From Patescibacteria group bacterium (lineage in GTDB: Bacteria; Patescibacteriota; Minisyncoccia; Minisyncoccales; PWPS01): a stretch of 64,000 bases of DNA. Positions 5,414 to 61,666 of this stretch are shown in pieces. The translations under genes and the position numbers were made by a program. Below the pieces are notes generated by a model, which worked only from the letters and a program-made list of their open reading frames with translations, was not told where the DNA came from and searched no databases. Numbering within the stretch: position 1 is the stretch's first letter; each line of letters opens with the position of its first letter. The DNA lies in NCBI GenBank assembly GCA_051745165.1, contig JBNJDU010000002.1:5479-69478 (forward strand). The letters are read 5' to 3'.

Positions 5414-6172
5414 ATGAATTCATCTAAAAATCAATCAAAAGAAAAACTTTTAACTTACCTTGATCACTTTATAGAGTCAGATTTTTTTCAAAAAATGGTA
5501 AGAGAAACAAGAGAAGAACTAAACATCCCCAAAAAGGGACTTAATAAATCAAAAGACGAACTTACAAGCTGCTCTTGGGATAAGTATATTTTATATATTC
5601 CGGAAGAATTAAAAGGCGATAAAGGGGAGATATTAAGATTTGTTAACAGTCAAATGGGGAGAGCTTATGAAAAATTTCCTGTAAATGATATCCGGATAAC
5701 TGCTATTTTTACTGTATATATTTATTATAATTTAAAAATATATAAAATTTTAAACAAAACAGACAATATCTGTTCTATTGAGGATATTAAGCAAACAATT
5801 CAGGAAAGAGAAGGATTAAAATTAAATTCTAAGGAAATAAATAGAATGATTGGAACTGATACATACCCTGTAATTTTAAAAATAAACCCTTCTGCAAGTC
5901 AGCGAGATATAGTTTCTTATATTAAAGATAATTGGAAAATTATTAAATATCATCTTGATAAGTATGAAAATAAATCAAAATTAGGAAAAATAAGATCTAG
6001 AGATCCAAAAATTAAAGAAAGAGATCGATTTATTTATAAAAATAGAGAAAAACCATATAAAGAAATAGTTTCTTTGGTTCAAAAAAAATTCCCTGAAGTA
6101 AGCGATTCGATTGATCAAGGTTCTGTTGGAAAAATAATTTCACTTGAGAGACAAAGAAGGAAAGAAGTGTAG
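5414..6172 (+). CDS. Hypothetical basic protein (252 aa), island-borne
   Basis: ORF track. No recognisable motif. Followed by a hairpin terminator at 6210-6236. Confidence 0.45.
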   Translation: MNSSKNQSKEKLLTYLDHFIESDFFQKMVRETREELNIPKKGLNKSKDELTSCSWDKYILYIPEELKGDKGEILRFVNSQMGRAYEKFPVNDIRITAIFTVYIYYNLKIYKILNKTDNICSIEDIKQTIQEREGLKLNSKEINRMIGTDTYPVILKINPSASQRDIVSYIKDNWKIIKYHLDKYENKSKLGKIRSRDPKIKERDRFIYKNREKPYKEIVSLVQKKFPEVSDSIDQGSVGKIISLERQRRKEV

Positions 6173-29790: not shown

Positions 29791-29796
29791 ATTTAC

Positions 29797-29931
29797 TTAA
29801 TATTACTTCTTAAGAACCACTCCTCAAGAATCGCCAGCGACGATTCGGGAGTTGTGCGCTCGTTGATTGATTTTAGCAAAGCTGAAAATCGTGCTCAATC
29901 AACTCCGCGAACTTCTAAGAAGTAATATTTA
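29797..29931 (-). repeat. Copy A of a ~135-nt conserved structured element (19-bp terminal inverted repeats aatattacttcttaagaa / ttctaagaagtaatatt); candidate ncRNA or MITE
   Basis: Its reverse complement aligns with copy B (61524-61657) and copy C (31111-31221), with covariation in three internal stems. Confidence 0.6.
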
Positions 29932-29993
29932 CGTTCACGGTTAACAAAATTAGTTAATTAAACTATAATTGATAAAAGTTTAACTAAAAAAAT

Positions 29994-30974
29994 ATGAGAA
30001 TATTCAGTGGAATTCAACCTACAGGAGGGCTTCATATCGGAAACTATTTAGGAGCTATAAAACAATGGATAGAGCTACAGGAAGAAAATGAGTGCATTTA
30101 CTCTATAGTTGATCTGCACGCCTTAACTTCTGACTACAACTCTGAAGAGTTACGAGATAAGATAATTAATACTGCTATCGTTTATCTTGCCGCCGGAATA
30201 GATCCAGAAAAGTCAACTATTTTCATCCAATCCGAAGTTAAAGAGCATACTGAATTAAGCTGGTACTTAAATACAGTAACACCAGTTGGAGAATTGGAAA
30301 GAATGACTCAATACAAGGAGAAATCCAAAAGCAAAAAGAAAAGATCTAATGCTGGTCTCTTAAATTACCCCATTTTAATGGCTGCCGATATTTTGCTTTA
30401 CGATACAGAAATCGTACCCGTTGGAGAGGATCAAATTCAACATATAGAACTGACTAGAGACATTGCTAAAAAGTTCAACAAGCAGTTTGGAAAAACATTT
30501 GAAATTCCAGAAGCAAAACTCCCTAAAAGTGGAGCAAGGATTATGAGCTTAAAAAATCCTCAAAATAAAATGTCCAAATCAGGAAAAAAGGGAAACGCTA
30601 TATCCTTATTTGACGACCCTGAAGTAATAAAGGAAAAGGTTATGTCTGCAGTAACTGATACTGACAATAAGATTAAATACGATATCAAAGATAAACCAGC
30701 AATCTCTAATTTGCTAGTTATTTACAGCGAATTCAAAGAACAATCCATTGCAGACAGTGAAAAAGAGTTAAAAGGAGATAGTTATAAACAGTTTAAAGAA
30801 AAATTAGCTGAACTCTTAATTGAATCTTTAGCTCCATTTAGAAAAAAAAGGAAAGAGCTTGAATCACGAAGAGAAGTTTATGTTGAAGAAATACTCTCAC
30901 AAGGAACTAGAAAAGCAAAATCTTACGCCTCTTCAAAAATTGTTGAAGTGCGTAGAAATATGGGGCTCATTTAA
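29994..30974 (+). CDS. trpS: Tryptophanyl-tRNA synthetase
   Basis: Class I aaRS with HIGH-like (GGLHIGNYLG) and KMSKS (KMSKSGKK) motifs. Confidence 0.92.
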   Translation: MRIFSGIQPTGGLHIGNYLGAIKQWIELQEENECIYSIVDLHALTSDYNSEELRDKIINTAIVYLAAGIDPEKSTIFIQSEVKEHTELSWYLNTVTPVGELERMTQYKEKSKSKKKRSNAGLLNYPILMAADILLYDTEIVPVGEDQIQHIELTRDIAKKFNKQFGKTFEIPEAKLPKSGARIMSLKNPQNKMSKSGKKGNAISLFDDPEVIKEKVMSAVTDTDNKIKYDIKDKPAISNLLVIYSEFKEQSIADSEKELKGDSYKQFKEKLAELLIESLAPFRKKRKELESRREVYVEEILSQGTRKAKSYASSKIVEVRRNMGLI

Positions 30975-31002
30975 TAGCTAGCTATCAGCTTTTAATAATA
31001 TA

Positions 31003-31029
31003 AAACCACTCGAATATCGAGTGGTTTTT
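31003..31029 (+). terminator. Rho-independent terminator after trpS (aaaaccactcgaatatcgagtggttttt)
   Basis: 7-bp stem plus T5; symmetric A-tract, so possibly bidirectional. Confidence 0.65.
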
Positions 31030-31063
31030 ACTATTTAAAATATTATCTAATAAACTCTTAAAA

Positions 31064-31108
31064 ATAGGTCGAACCTATCAGAAGTAGTTAAAAATAGGTT
31101 GGACCTAT
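31064..31108. promoter_or_regulatory. Two tandem palindromic sites AAAAATAGGT-N3-ACCTAT, 30 bp apart
   Basis: ATAGGTcgaACCTAT at 31064-31078 and ATAGGTtggACCTAT at 31094-31108; immediately 5' of element copy C. Confidence 0.4.
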
Positions 31109-31110
31109 TC

Positions 31111-31221
31111 TATCGGAGAGGATTTTGCATGGTCTTTTCGTTAGAAAAGAAAATCCTCGAGAGCACAGAGCCCGAATTCCCGCTGGGAATTCTTGAGGCT
31201 CGGTTCTTACAAAGAGGGTAT
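31111..31221 (+). repeat. Copy C of the conserved structured element (5' outer stem absent or replaced; 3' end overlaps the stop region of the convergent phosphohexomutase gene)
   Basis: The 3' 65 nt are ~80% identical to copy B. Hairpins aggatttt...aaaatcct and gaattcccgctgggaattc covary with B and A. Confidence 0.55.
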
Positions 31222-31230
31222 CGAGCGCAC

Positions 31231-32556
31231 TTATGATTCCTTTATCAAAGAAACAAGTTCTTCTGTTTTTTCTTCTAAAAGTTTTTTACTTTCTGCCTCC
31301 AACCTAAGTCTTACTACATCCTCTGTGTTTGATTTTCTTAAATTAAACCACCAGTTATCAAAATCAATATAAACACCGTCTAAATTAATACTAAATCCTT
31401 CCGGAAAAGCTTCTCTCGCCCTTTCTAAAGCCTTATCTTTATCATCTACCTCCATATTTATTTCTTCGCTTTGGTAATAAATCTTAAGCGGTTCAGTTAG
31501 CTCAGAGAGAGTTTTATCTACATTTCCCAAAAAGCTAATCATTTTGATGGCGATAAAAAGCCCATCATCAATGCAGTAATTATCTTTATGCATTATATGA
31601 CCAGAAAGCTCAGCCCCCATTAAACCTCCTTCATTAACTAATTTCTCTTTATAAAAAGGATTTCCTACTCTCATCATCTCTGGAATCCCTCCTGACTCAG
31701 AAACTTTTTCTGGAGTTATTTTTGAAAATCTTAAATCAAAATATACTTTTTTCTCTTTTGATTTTTTTAATTCTTTTTGAGCTAAAAGGCTAATGATTAA
31801 ATCTGGATAAACAATCTCTCCTTTTTCATCTACAAAAAAGGCTCTATCTCCATCCCCATCAAAAAACACACCTAAATCTGCTTTTTCTTCTTTCACTTTA
31901 TTGATAAGCTCTTCCATATTTTTGGGTTCTGGATTCGGTAAGTGATTAGGAAAAGCAGGATCTAAATCTTCATATAAGCTAACTACTTCTGCTTTAATAT
32001 TTTTAAATACTTCCTTGCCAGTTACAGAGGCAACACCATTTCCATAGTCGACTACTACTTTCAAGTCTTCTTTATGATCAACAAACGAGAGAATATGCGA
32101 AATATAATCTGGTAATGGATCTTTCTTCTCCACACTCCCATTACCTTTTTTAAACTTTTCTTTTTTAATTAGGTTCTTTATCTTTTTTATTCCTTTCCCA
32201 TACACTTGCAACCCATTTTCTTTAATTAGCTTTAACCCATTATATTCCGGTGGATTATGAGAAGCAGTTACCATTACTCCTCCGGAATGACTGTACTTAC
32301 AAACTGCGAAGTTTAAAAGCGGGGTTGTAGCAACTCCGATGTCAAAAACAGTAGCTCCAGAATCTATCAATCCCCTTTTAAGCTCTTTGAAAAGTGCGGG
32401 AGAAGTTTTTCGAGCATCTCTCCCAACTACAATTTCCGGATTTTCTTCATCAAGAAAAGAAACAAACCCCCTTCCTACTAAATAGGCAGTTTCTTTGTCT
32501 AATTCTTCTGGAGATAAGCCCCTTATATCGTATGTTTTAAATATTTTATCCTCCAT
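31231..32556 (-). CDS. Phosphomannomutase/phosphoglucomutase (alpha-D-phosphohexomutase family)
   Basis: Active-site TASHNPPEYNG, metal-binding DGDGDR, sugar-binding motifs. Confidence 0.85.
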   Translation of the reverse strand: MEDKIFKTYDIRGLSPEELDKETAYLVGRGFVSFLDEENPEIVVGRDARKTSPALFKELKRGLIDSGATVFDIGVATTPLLNFAVCKYSHSGGVMVTASHNPPEYNGLKLIKENGLQVYGKGIKKIKNLIKKEKFKKGNGSVEKKDPLPDYISHILSFVDHKEDLKVVVDYGNGVASVTGKEVFKNIKAEVVSLYEDLDPAFPNHLPNPEPKNMEELINKVKEEKADLGVFFDGDGDRAFFVDEKGEIVYPDLIISLLAQKELKKSKEKKVYFDLRFSKITPEKVSESGGIPEMMRVGNPFYKEKLVNEGGLMGAELSGHIMHKDNYCIDDGLFIAIKMISFLGNVDKTLSELTEPLKIYYQSEEINMEVDDKDKALERAREAFPEGFSINLDGVYIDFDNWWFNLRKSNTEDVVRLRLEAESKKLLEEKTEELVSLIKES

Positions 32557-61470: not shown

Positions 61471-61523
61471 AAGTTATATTATGTTAAAATTAACTACTTT
61501 ACGAATGCCTTTCCTTAAAATGA

Positions 61524-61657
61524 AAATACCCTCTTTGAAGAAGTCCGCGGAGCTGATTTAGCAAGGTTTTTGGCCTTGCCAAAATAAATCAGCGAGCGAA
61601 CAACCTCCGAATCACCGCTGGTGATTCTTGAGAGGTGTTTCTTCAAAAGAGGGTATT
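61524..61657 (+). repeat. Copy B of the conserved ~135-nt structured element (outer stem ataccctctttgaagaag / cttcaaaagagggtat; inner hairpins ctgatttagcaagg..ccttgc..taaatcag and gaatcaccgctggtgattc); candidate ncRNA or MITE
   Basis: Complete copy. Homologous to A (reverse complement) and C, with compensatory substitutions. It abuts the tRNA-Glu 3' end (10 nt away). Confidence 0.6.
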
Positions 61658-61666
61658 GAATGAATG

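What the first reader, a model, noticed from the sequence alone, without database searches (positions are those of the whole stretch)
31064..31221. Copy C: truncated or variant element preceded by two tandem 15-bp palindromes and overlapping the stop region of the phosphohexomutase gene
The 3' two-thirds of copy C is ~80% identical to copy B, but the 5' outer-stem partner is missing. In its place are two tandem sites, AAAAATAGGTcgaACCTAT and AAAAATAGGTtggACCTAT, spaced 30 bp apart (about three helical turns), which looks like a dimeric transcription-factor or recombinase binding array. The 3' outer-stem sequence (ttcttacaaagagggtatcgagcgcac) runs into the last codons and stop of the convergent gene 31231..32556. 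Either the element inserted at the very end of that gene and supplied its terminal codons, or this arm doubles as the gene's terminator. The tandem palindromes lie downstream of both flanking genes, so they are not an obvious promoter operator, unless they drive the element as an RNA gene.
Basis: seen in the sequence. Interest (0 to 1): 0.6.

Follow-up and report, generated by a model that had tools for sequence, protein, structure and literature searches.

The report
Broken copy of gene-end repeat
This is a damaged copy of a small, hairpin-rich mobile DNA repeat that sits exactly at the ends of genes in a group of tiny-genome (CPR/Patescibacteria) bacteria. The two small palindromes beside it are a one-off local duplication, not a recurring protein-binding array.

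Summary
The two palindromes (31064-78 and 31094-108, 30 nt apart) are real, and copy C does lack its 5' outer-stem arm.

Copy C (31113-31230, + strand) belongs to a ~147-nt three-way-junction repeat family (P1/P2/P3). The window holds three copies. More than 20 further copies were found in related Patescibacteria MAGs and metagenomes. The family has no match in Rfam, plasmids or phages.

The family is mobile:
- Orthologous pgm|trpS, rnj|trpS and tRNA-Glu spacers are empty in some relatives.
- In others they are filled, with different subfamilies.
- One copy is nested inside another.

In nearly all copies the 3' tail abuts the stop codon or tRNA 3' end of a convergent gene, always in the same orientation.

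Copy C ends at 31230. The pgm stop codon is 31231-33, so C abuts the gene without overlapping it. pgm C-termini are collinear whether or not an element is present, so no codons come from the element.

Homology of C to the family starts at TCGGAG (31113). The first ~30 positions are replaced by unrelated sequence holding a 21-nt direct repeat (TTAAAAATAGGTYGRACCTAT, two copies). That unit is unique in 198 kb of window plus related loci.

On the pgm-sense strand each unit reads as a weak hairpin followed by a T-run, so a weak terminator is possible. Nothing supports an operator or recombinase array.

Two things remain open: which strand of the element acts, and why it sits at gene ends.

The parts
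31002..31028 (.). Strong bidirectional intrinsic terminator (AAAACCACTCGA-ata-TCGAGTGGTTTT) just after trpS. It is context, not part of the element, and is the first canonical terminator that pgm-sense transcription would meet.
   Evidence: 12-bp stem, 5 GC pairs, T-runs on both strands
31058..31078 (-). Repeat unit 1: TTAAAAATAGGTCGAACCTAT. On the pgm-sense (-) strand it reads ATAGGTTCGACCTAT followed by TTTTAA, a 6-7-bp AU-rich hairpin plus a T-run.
31088..31108 (-). Repeat unit 2: TTAAAAATAGGTTGGACCTAT (19 of 21 identical to unit 1). On the - strand it reads ATAGGTCCAACCTAT followed by TTTTAA. Units 1 and 2 can also pair with each other into a ~16-bp hairpin (-20.7 kcal/mol on the - strand, z = -4.4).
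31113..31118 (+). TCGGAG: the J1/2 junction, and the first position of copy C homologous to the family (the truncation breakpoint).
31119..31157 (+). P2 hairpin of copy C (AGGATTTT...AAAATCCT with an inner hairpin TCTTTTC/GAAAAGA), fully paired.
31158..31167 (+). J2/3 junction CGAGAGCACA (family consensus CGAGCGCACA).
31168..31201 (+). P3 hairpin GAGCC-CGAATTCC-CGCTG-GGAATTC-TTGA-GGCTC. It co-varies with A and B.
31204..31222 (+). Orphan 3' strand of the outer stem P1 (TTCTTACAAAGAGGGTATC). Its partner is absent.
31223..31230 (+). Conserved 3' tail GAGCGCAC, ending 0 nt from the pgm stop codon.
31231..31233 (-). pgm (phosphoglucomutase/phosphomannomutase, 441 aa) stop codon TAA. It is not part of the conserved element core.

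Best explanation
**What copy C is.** Copy C is a 5'-truncated, probably inert copy of a ~147-160-nt non-autonomous mobile repeat family found in a clade of Patescibacteria (CPR).

**The intact element.** It folds, as DNA or RNA, into a three-way junction:
- a ~20-bp outer stem P1 made from its two ends;
- two inner hairpins, P2 and P3;
- conserved junctions: TTCGCGGAG, CGAGCGCACAA and the loop CGCTG;
- a conserved 3' tail, YGAGYGMA.

**Shown.**
- The family is mobile: orthologous sites are filled in some genomes and empty in others, subfamilies turn over at one site, and one copy is nested inside another.
- It lodges with its 3' tail flush against the 3' end of a convergent gene (a TAA or TAG stop, or the tRNA-Glu 3' end), always in that orientation.
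- In C, the first ~30 positions (5' tail plus the 5' strand of P1) have been replaced by unrelated sequence, so P1 cannot form. P2, P3 and the tail are intact.
- The replacing sequence carries two copies of a locus-specific 21-nt unit.

**Inferred.**
- The element moves through a transposase supplied in trans, MITE-like. TA or TA-like dinucleotides flank many copies.
- It is tolerated or retained only at gene ends in these very compact genomes.
- It is co-transcribed as the 3' UTR of the gene it abuts, where the big hairpin would act as a 3'-end structure (terminator or stabiliser).
- The palindrome units are a by-product of the rearrangement that removed the 5' arm. Read on the pgm strand (hairpin + T-run, twice), they may give weak termination ahead of the strong terminator at 31002-28.
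For: **A real, structured family.**
- 23 distinct sequences show 95.9% of cells paired, against 39-49% in slid controls. 46 of 55 pairs show compensatory changes.
- The window holds three copies, with the model run without filters. There are 7 loci in 3 CPR MAGs and 5 metagenome loci.
- No Rfam family matches. Plasmids and phages give no match.

**Mobility.**
- The pgm|trpS spacer is 6 bp and empty in L013. It is also empty in L016, L018 and L023.
- The same spacer is filled at offset 0 with different subfamilies in the window, L015, L020/21 and L022.
- The rnj|trpS spacer is empty in L013, L016 and L018 and filled in the window and L015.
- The tRNA-Glu site is empty in L027 and filled in the window, L011, L025 and L026.
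- A nested copy sits inside the old copy in L015.
- 5' fragments of older copies lie upstream of full copies.

**Gene-end rule.** The element ends at offset 0 from the stop codon of a long convergent ORF in 9 of the first 18 hits. Most of the others abut tRNA-Glu. A positive gap occurs only at L004/L009, where a terminator hairpin intervenes, and the L005 copy has no assigned gene end. All copies have one orientation.

**Truncation of C.**. P2 and P3 of C are fully Watson-Crick paired.

**No codons donated.**

**The palindrome unit is local only.**

**Hairpin + T-run on the pgm strand.**

**No transposase next to copies.** The neighbours are housekeeping genes.

**TA or TA-like flanks.**. TA termini and TIRs are typical of bacterial MITEs (PMC5896051).
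Against: - **Target-site duplication is unproven.** Matched TA...TA flanks are seen in only about 5 copies. Others show TG, CA, AG or AA.
- **The gene-end rule is unexplained.** Neither a TA target nor selection alone clearly accounts for 0-nt abutment in one fixed orientation.
- **The acting strand is unresolved.** Counts are 38 G·U against 22 A·C on the + strand (p = 0.05, on an alignment fitted to that strand), and 14 against 13 in the inner helices.
- **Intact elements are not canonical terminators.** After P1 on the gene-sense strand there are only 5.5 T in 14 nt.
- **The palindrome hairpins are weak.** Each has 2 GC pairs in 6, folds at -5.8 to -6.9 kcal/mol and has 4-5 T. The genome's clear terminators have 11-13-bp GC-rich stems.
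- **No expression data** exist for this locus.
- **The truncation event itself cannot be reconstructed.**
Confidence: 0.62

Rival explanations
1. The two palindromes are a tandem operator or recombinase-binding array (a dimeric protein bound at two sites three helical turns apart). It would regulate or mobilise the element.
For: - Two near-identical 6-3-6 palindromes lie 30 bp apart.
- They sit exactly at the breakpoint of the truncated element.
Against: - The unit is unique in the window and in about 134 kb of related loci that hold more than 20 element copies.
- It is absent from all 8 orthologous pgm loci.
- There is no promoter and no regulator or recombinase gene nearby.
- No other family copy carries it.
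Confidence: 0.07
2. The palindrome region is the decayed and duplicated original 5' arm of copy C, or leftover 5' fragments of older element copies. Such fragments are seen upstream of full copies in other loci.
For: - 5' fragments of older copies commonly sit just upstream of family members.
- The distance from a leader-like TCAGAAG to TCGGAG is 33 nt in C and 30 nt in the full-length L026 copy.
- Short shared strings (CAGAA, AAATA) appear in the alignment.
Against: - The 5'-arm HMM finds nothing in 31036-31112, even at E <= 50.
- The best local alignment of that region to 15+ 5' arms scores 17, against a shuffle mean of 16.9; 252 of 500 shuffles score as high.
Confidence: 0.15
3. The family is a free-standing structured small-RNA gene transcribed from the + strand, and C is a functional variant whose 5' hairpin (the two palindromes paired) replaces P1.
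For: - Covariation in all helices is very strong.
- G·U outnumbers A·C on the + strand, 38 against 22.
- The palindromes fold into a -19 kcal/mol hairpin on the + strand, next to J1/2.
Against: - Nothing conserved resembling a promoter lies upstream of copies. The 5' flanks are unrelated or are older fragments.
- Copy A's + strand faces away from any co-directional gene.
- The pairs are 93% pure Watson-Crick, and the inner helices show no strand bias at 14 against 13. That pattern is more typical of DNA palindromic repeats.
- Presence/absence and nested copies indicate a mobile repeat.
- All other C-type copies keep a normal P1.
Confidence: 0.1
4. The palindrome + T-run units are genuine (duplicated) intrinsic terminators of pgm. 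They were selected because truncation destroyed the element's own 3'-end hairpin.
For: - On the pgm strand each unit is a hairpin followed by a T-run, and together they form a -20.7 kcal/mol hairpin followed by T-rich sequence.
- pgm orthologs without an element carry a terminator hairpin right after the stop (L018, L023).
- At the empty tRNA-Glu site of L027, a plain hairpin + T8 occupies the element's place, and its arms resemble P1.
Against: - The stems are weak, AU-rich and short, unlike the genome's clear terminators.
- A strong bidirectional terminator lies only 30 nt further on.
- The unit does not recur.
- No transcript data exist.
Confidence: 0.25

Closest known systems
Bacterial MITEs with TA termini (Neisseria Correia/nemis, ERIC/IRU, pneumococcal RUP, Coxiella QMITE1/2)
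   Same: - Small (100-400 bp) and non-coding.
- The two ends are inverted repeats that pair into a long stem.
- Many dispersed copies, with presence/absence between relatives and nested insertions.
- Located in or next to 3' UTRs.
- TA-like flanks in many copies (definition in PMC5896051).
   Different: - Its inner part is a conserved three-way junction whose two hairpins co-vary.
- It has a strict single orientation and 0-nt abutment to stop codons or the tRNA 3' end.
- Target duplication is not demonstrated.
- No parent IS or transposase was identified.
- The host clade is CPR.
REP/BIME and REPIN elements mobilised by RAYT (Y1 HUH) transposases
   Same: - Palindromic intergenic repeats concentrated just downstream of genes.
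- Complementarity is kept almost purely Watson-Crick.
- They are hot spots for further insertions.
- They are thought to act on mRNA 3' ends.
   Different: - REPs are ~35 nt and REPINs are simple long hairpins. This element is ~150 nt with a branched fold.
- No RAYT gene was seen in the DNA examined.
- There is no flanking GTAG-type signature.
Rho-independent (intrinsic) terminators
   Same: - The palindrome units read on the pgm strand are a hairpin followed by a T-run.
- The element family occupies the place where relatives carry terminators.
   Different: - The unit stems are short and AU-rich (2 GC pairs).
- Intact elements have only a U-rich UUCGYUU, not a U-tract, after P1.
Integron attC sites / Vibrio cholerae repeats
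   Same: - ~60-140-nt imperfect palindromes placed directly after the stop codon of the preceding ORF, in a fixed orientation.
- They are folded as single strands, and some have branched tips.
   Different: - The flanking genes here are syntenic housekeeping genes, not cassettes.
- There are no R''/R' core sites (RYYYAAC/GTTRRRY) and no integrase nearby.
- The central sequence is conserved here, whereas attC conserves structure only.
Bacterial class C group II introns (insert after terminator hairpins) and IS200/IS605-type single-strand elements
   Same: - Strand-specific insertion at gene 3' ends, or next to short motifs, without obvious duplications.
- One copy (L004) lies right after a terminator T-run.
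   Different: - This element is far too small for a group II intron, and no domain V/VI was found.
- Its ends pair with each other, unlike the separate subterminal hairpins of IS200/IS605.
- No TnpA or TnpB gene lies nearby.

Membership tests
Window repeat family (copies A and B; model R1) | Significant match to the covariance model built from full copies | tested here: met
   C scores 74.9 bits, E about 1e-19. It is the third and last hit in the window with filters off.
Window repeat family (copies A and B; model R1) | Complete outer stem P1 formed by the 5' and 3' ends | tested here: not met
   The 5' arm is absent. P1 pairs are flagged non-canonical or gapped. Homology starts at model position ~30. 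No displaced arm exists in the window.
Window repeat family (copies A and B; model R1) | 3' tail abutting the 3' end of a convergent gene | tested here: met
   The tail ends at 31230 and the pgm stop is 31231-33, an offset of 0.
MITE (non-autonomous DNA transposon) | Small non-coding unit with terminal inverted repeats | tested here: met
   The unit is ~147 nt. The P1 arms form ~18-20 bp of inverted repeat in intact copies. C itself has lost one arm.
MITE (non-autonomous DNA transposon) | Multiple dispersed copies with insertion polymorphism at orthologous sites | tested here: met
   Empty and filled states are seen at the pgm|trpS, rnj|trpS and tRNA-Glu sites.
MITE (non-autonomous DNA transposon) | Target-site duplication (e.g. 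TA) flanking each copy | tested here: inconclusive
   TA...TA flanks occur in about 5 copies. Others show TG, CA, AG or AA on one side. Many 5' flanks are older fragments.
MITE (non-autonomous DNA transposon) | Parent IS or transposase sharing the same ends | not tested
   None was seen among the neighbouring genes scanned.
   The motif is unique in the window and in 26 loci. It is absent from orthologous spacers and from viral contigs.
   It lies downstream of both genes. No credible promoter is present. The neighbours are trpS, pgm, rnj, rpsF and ssb.
Intrinsic terminator (palindrome units, - strand) | GC-rich stem-loop directly followed by a U-tract | tested here: inconclusive
   The stem is 6-9 bp with 2 GC pairs, at -5.8 to -6.9 kcal/mol, followed by 4-5 T. 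The paired form folds at -20.7 kcal/mol. The units fall below the scanner's GC threshold.
Any Rfam 15 RNA family | Match at or near the gathering score | tested here: not met
   Nothing credible was found on either strand for C or B. The best hit was 17 bits, to a C/D-box snoRNA model whose gathering score is 45.
Integron attC | R''/R' core sites and cassette/integrase context | tested here: not met
   No RYYYAAC...GTTRRRY ends appear in the aligned copies. The context is syntenic housekeeping genes.

The most novel reading that the evidence does not exclude
The family may be a new class of structured mobile element (or co-opted 3'-end RNA module) in CPR bacteria. It would home, strand-specifically, to the nucleotide right after a gene product's end: a stop codon, a tRNA discriminator or a terminator. 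The mechanism would not be one known for MITEs, for example an RNA- or single-strand-DNA-guided or transcription/translation-coupled step. Copy C would be a by-product of that mechanism, such as an incomplete, target-anchored copy that keeps the gene-side end.
Probability: 0.2. Interest if true: 0.8.

Novelty: new variant of a known kind. Interest (0 to 1): 0.45.

Why it matters
Copy C by itself is a dead, rearranged repeat, and its palindromes are of local interest only.

The family it belongs to is not in Rfam, and none of the five literature searches run found it. It shows unusually strict behaviour for a small bacterial repeat:
- it abuts stop codons and the tRNA-Glu 3' end with no gap;
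- it always lies in one orientation;
- subfamilies turn over at the same site;
- all three helices carry heavy compensatory change.

If this placement reflects a targeting mechanism or a host 3'-end function, it would bear on how transcripts are ended and stabilised in ultra-compact CPR genomes. It would also bear on how selfish DNA survives where intergenic space can be as short as 6 bp. In practice, these repeats break MAG assemblies, since many copies lie at contig ends, and they can mislead gene-end annotation.

Tried and rejected
1. **Known RNA family.** Rfam at gathering score on the whole window, and in permissive mode on C and B, gave nothing credible.
2. **Element-derived pgm C-terminus.** Rejected by the C-terminal alignment and the ortholog lengths.
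3. **Palindromes as a decayed 5' arm.** The nhmmer search and a Smith-Waterman test against shuffles were both negative.
4. **Displaced 5' arm elsewhere in the window.** None found.
5. **Simple 30-bp tandem duplication.** TRF calls nothing, and only 21 of the 30 nt are repeated.
6. **Palindrome recurrence.** None in the window, the loci or viral contigs.
7. **Plasmid or phage origin of the family.** No BLAST match.
8. **Transposase, reverse transcriptase or integrase next to copies.** The genes scanned are all housekeeping.
9. **Intact element as a canonical terminator.** T-richness after P1 is only modest.
10. **Deciding the acting strand from G·U against A·C counts.** Inconclusive.
11. **P1 as a captured local terminator stem.** Suggested by L027, but rejected as a general rule. 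P1 is similar across non-homologous loci, and the empty-site terminators of L018 and L023 are unrelated to it.
12. **Stop-codon usage as a test of a TA target.** There is no TGA among about 13 element-adjacent stops, but TGA is only 12% genome-wide, so p is about 0.19.
13. **Literature on CPR repeats, MITEs or structured RNAs.** Five searches were run (a sixth was rejected for a malformed term) and none found this family.

Full report
**1. What is at the coordinates**

- The spacer lies between trpS (29994-30974, +) and a phosphoglucomutase/phosphomannomutase gene (31231-32556, -), and both genes end facing it.
- ATAGGTcgaACCTAT (31064-78) and ATAGGTtggACCTAT (31094-108) are the only two matches to ATAGGTNNNACCTAT in the 64 kb. 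Chance predicts 0.24, and 4 of 100 shuffles give two or more.
- The palindromes are the cores of a 21-nt direct repeat, TTAAAAATAGGTYGRACCTAT, at 31058-78 and 31088-108. The copies are 90% identical with a 30-nt period.
- The two units are also 94% complementary to each other.
- TRF does not call a tandem array, because the 9 nt after each unit differ.

**2. Copy C and its family**

- The stretch to the right of the palindromes matches two other places in the window: B (61519-61665, +) and A (29791-29935, -).
- A conserved P3 pattern retrieved 7 loci from three CPR MAGs and 5 metagenome contigs. It retrieved none from viral contigs. Many of these copies lie at contig ends, as repeats do.
- Nine full copies gave an RNAalifold three-way junction with helices P1, P2 and P3. 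32 of 55 pairs showed compensatory changes.
- A covariance model then found further copies in the same and in newly fetched loci.
- On 23 distinct sequences, 95.9% of cells pair, against 39-49% when partners are slid. 46 of 55 pairs change on both sides.
- With filters off, the window has exactly three copies. C scores 74.9 bits, against 143.6 for A and 167.8 for B, and its P1 pairs are not formed.
- A 5'-module HMM matches C only from 31114, at model position ~30.
- Aligned with full-length C-type copies (L026, L025, L011), homology begins at TCGGAG (31113) and runs to the tail.
- No 5' arm is found elsewhere in the window.
- Identity to B is lower than stated: 76.7% over 73 nt and 66% over the shared ~120 positions.

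**3. Relation to the pgm stop codon**

- The conserved tail ...TATCGAGCGCAC ends at 31230. The stop codon (TTA on the + strand) is 31231-33.
- The element therefore abuts the stop codon without overlapping any codon.
- Syntenic orthologous loci (recA-ssb-rpsF-pgm-trpS-rnj) settle the codon question:
  - In L013/L014 the two stop codons are 6 bp apart, with no element.
  - L016/17, L018/19 and L023 also lack an element. L018 and L023 carry an ordinary terminator hairpin right after the stop.
  - L015, L020/21 and L022 each have a full element flush against the stop.
- The last ~50 residues of pgm align collinearly in filled and empty genomes, and all close orthologs are 439-442 aa.
- The element does not supply terminal codons.

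**4. The family is mobile and obeys a gene-end rule**

- The same pgm site holds different subfamilies in different relatives. Older 5' fragments often sit just upstream of the current copy.
- The rnj|trpS site is empty in L013, L016 and L018. It is filled in the window (copy A) and in L015.
- In L015 a second, diverged copy is nested inside P2 of the old one.
- The tRNA-Glu site is filled in the window (B), L011, L025 and L026, and empty in L027.
- Across copies, the model's 3' end falls at offset 0 from the stop codon of a long convergent ORF. This held for 9 of the first 18 hits, and later for L015, L020 and L022. Other copies abut the 3' end of tRNA-Glu.
- A few copies show offsets of -2, -5 or -10.
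- A positive gap is seen only at L004/L009, where the copy follows a terminator hairpin and T-run downstream of rpsI. The L005 copy has no assigned gene end.
- Orientation is always the same.
- For RNase J, the Pfam C-terminal domain runs to the last residue, so there too the insertion is after the native end.
- Fragment arrays are most simply explained by a new copy inserting into or beside an old one, followed by deletion between the direct repeats. L015 looks like an unresolved intermediate. This is inference.

**5. What moves it and which strand matters (unresolved)**

- Neighbouring genes are housekeeping, and no transposase, RT or integrase was seen.
- Many copies are flanked by TA on both sides, and others by TG, CA, AG or AA.
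- For copy A, a TA duplication would reconstruct the original stop as TAA and explain the present TAG. This is suggestive, not proof.
- TA termini and terminal inverted repeats are typical of bacterial MITEs (PMC5896051).
- Non-Watson-Crick pairs are rare (about 5-7% of cells).
- G·U exceeds A·C on the + strand, 38 to 22 (p = 0.05), on an alignment fitted to that strand. In the inner helices the counts are 14 to 13.
- This near-pure complementarity fits a DNA-level palindromic repeat at least as well as a one-strand RNA gene.
- No conserved promoter-like sequence precedes the copies.
- The gene-sense strand, by contrast, is necessarily co-transcribed with the abutting gene.
- After P1 on that strand the sequence is U-rich (UUCGYUU) but not a canonical U-tract, with 5.5 T in 14 nt.
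- At the empty tRNA-Glu site of L027, a plain hairpin + T8 occupies the element's place. Its arms resemble the outer arms of P1.
- That is compatible with a 3'-end/terminator role for P1, but it is a single case.

**6. The palindromes**

- The unit is absent from all other element copies, from all orthologous spacers, from 198 kb of window plus loci, and from viral contigs.
- The region 31036-31112 shows no detectable similarity to the 5' arms. nhmmer finds nothing, and the Smith-Waterman score of 17 matches a shuffle mean of 16.9.
- No promoter lies nearby.
There each unit reads ATAGGTyyrACCTAT + TTTT(AA).
- Folding energies are:

| Form | MFE |
|---|---|
| Unit 1 (31056-86) alone, pgm strand | -5.8 kcal/mol |
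| Unit 2 (31086-116) alone, pgm strand | -6.9 kcal/mol |
| Two units paired together, pgm strand | -20.7 kcal/mol (z = -4.4) |
| Two units paired together, + strand | -19.1 kcal/mol |

- These hairpins are weaker than the genome's clear terminators, which have 11-13-bp GC-rich stems. One of those lies 30 nt further on, at 31002-28.
- I therefore treat the units as a locus-specific duplication created during the rearrangement that removed C's 5' arm. A weak pgm-sense terminator role is the only concrete functional reading, at about 25-30%. A protein-binding array is unlikely, at about 7%.

**7. Comparison with known systems**

- The family works most like bacterial MITEs or REP-type repeats. 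It is small and non-coding, its ends pair, it is dispersed and polymorphic, it nests, and it lies at gene 3' ends.
- Membership in the MITE class is not established. Target duplication is inconclusive and no parent IS is known.
- It differs in three ways: a conserved, co-varying three-way junction; strict orientation and zero-gap abutment to gene ends; and its host clade.
- It is not an Rfam family, an attC site or a group II intron fragment.

**8. Verdict**

Truncation and the significance of the gene-end position hold. Codon donation is refuted, and the binding array is unsupported.
- Copy C itself is ordinary decay of a repeat. The family-level gene-end rule is the interesting and unexplained part.

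Noticed in passing
window 29791-29935 (-), 61519-61665 (+); loci L001-L026: Every family copy has its 3' tail flush against the stop codon or tRNA-Glu 3' end of a convergent gene. Most offsets are 0 and a few are -2 to -10. The only positive gap is at L004/L009, where a terminator hairpin intervenes, and L005 has no assigned gene end. Orientation is always the same. Neither a TA target nor selection alone clearly explains this.
   Followed up: partly
L015 5826-6090: The ortholog of window copy A is interrupted in its P2 hairpin by a second, diverged full copy (5875-6020). About 23 nt of the old copy are missing at the junction. It looks like an unresolved intermediate of the 'old 5' fragment + new full copy' arrays seen elsewhere.
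   Followed up: partly
L012 8140-8956; L026 1480-2340: These regions hold arrays of full elements, several 5' fragments of other subfamilies, and duplicated 3' fragments of tRNA-Glu (TGACCCCGAGGGGgAATTGAACG...). L026 also has a ~480-nt unassigned stretch (1700-2180) with no Rfam or ARAGORN hit.
   Followed up: partly
L027 2318-2364: At the empty tRNA-Glu site there is a plain hairpin, AAAAAAAATACCTCC...GAGGTATTT, which is a hairpin + T8 on the tRNA strand. Its arms and downstream 12-15 nt resemble the outer P1 arms and tail of the element. In this genome the tRNA-Glu gene encodes CCA, unlike in the window.
   Followed up: no
L011 1850-2030, L012 8100-8230, L015 4560-4700, L018 4640-4860, L026 1170-1430: A second, unrelated-looking repeat (GTCATyCTGAGCGAAGCGAAGrATC..., GGGAATGAC, CCCGCGAAAGCGGGAATC) crowds the same spacers. 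Its GAGCGAAGCGAAG string resembles the element's 5' tail AAGCGAAG.
   Followed up: no
window 29941-29969 (+): A near-consensus promoter (TTAACA-17-TATAAT, 11 of 12) for trpS lies immediately beyond element A. The element therefore sits between the RNase J stop codon and the trpS promoter.
   Followed up: no
window 31223-31230 and 31158-31167 (and the same positions in all copies): The motif CGAGCGCA occurs twice per element, in junction J2/3 and in the 3' tail. At the nested insertion in L015, the new copy's tail is fused to the old copy's J2/3 motif.
   Followed up: no
L024 (CAYWPY010000002.1) and L001, L003, L005, L006: The MAG labelled 'uncultured Candidatus Saccharibacteria' shares the recA-ssb-rpsF-pgm...rnj synteny (69% pgm identity) and the repeat family with the window's 'Patescibacteria group' MAG and with a Nealsonbacteria MAG. 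The taxonomic label may be loose. Several of its contigs end inside the repeat.
   Followed up: no
window 61536-61558 (+): There is a weak match (17 bits, E 0.02, gathering score 45) of the P1/J1-2 region of copy B to the C'/D-box half of archaeal snoRNA sR23 (UGAAGA...CUGA). Other copies lack CUGA, so this is probably chance.
   Followed up: partly
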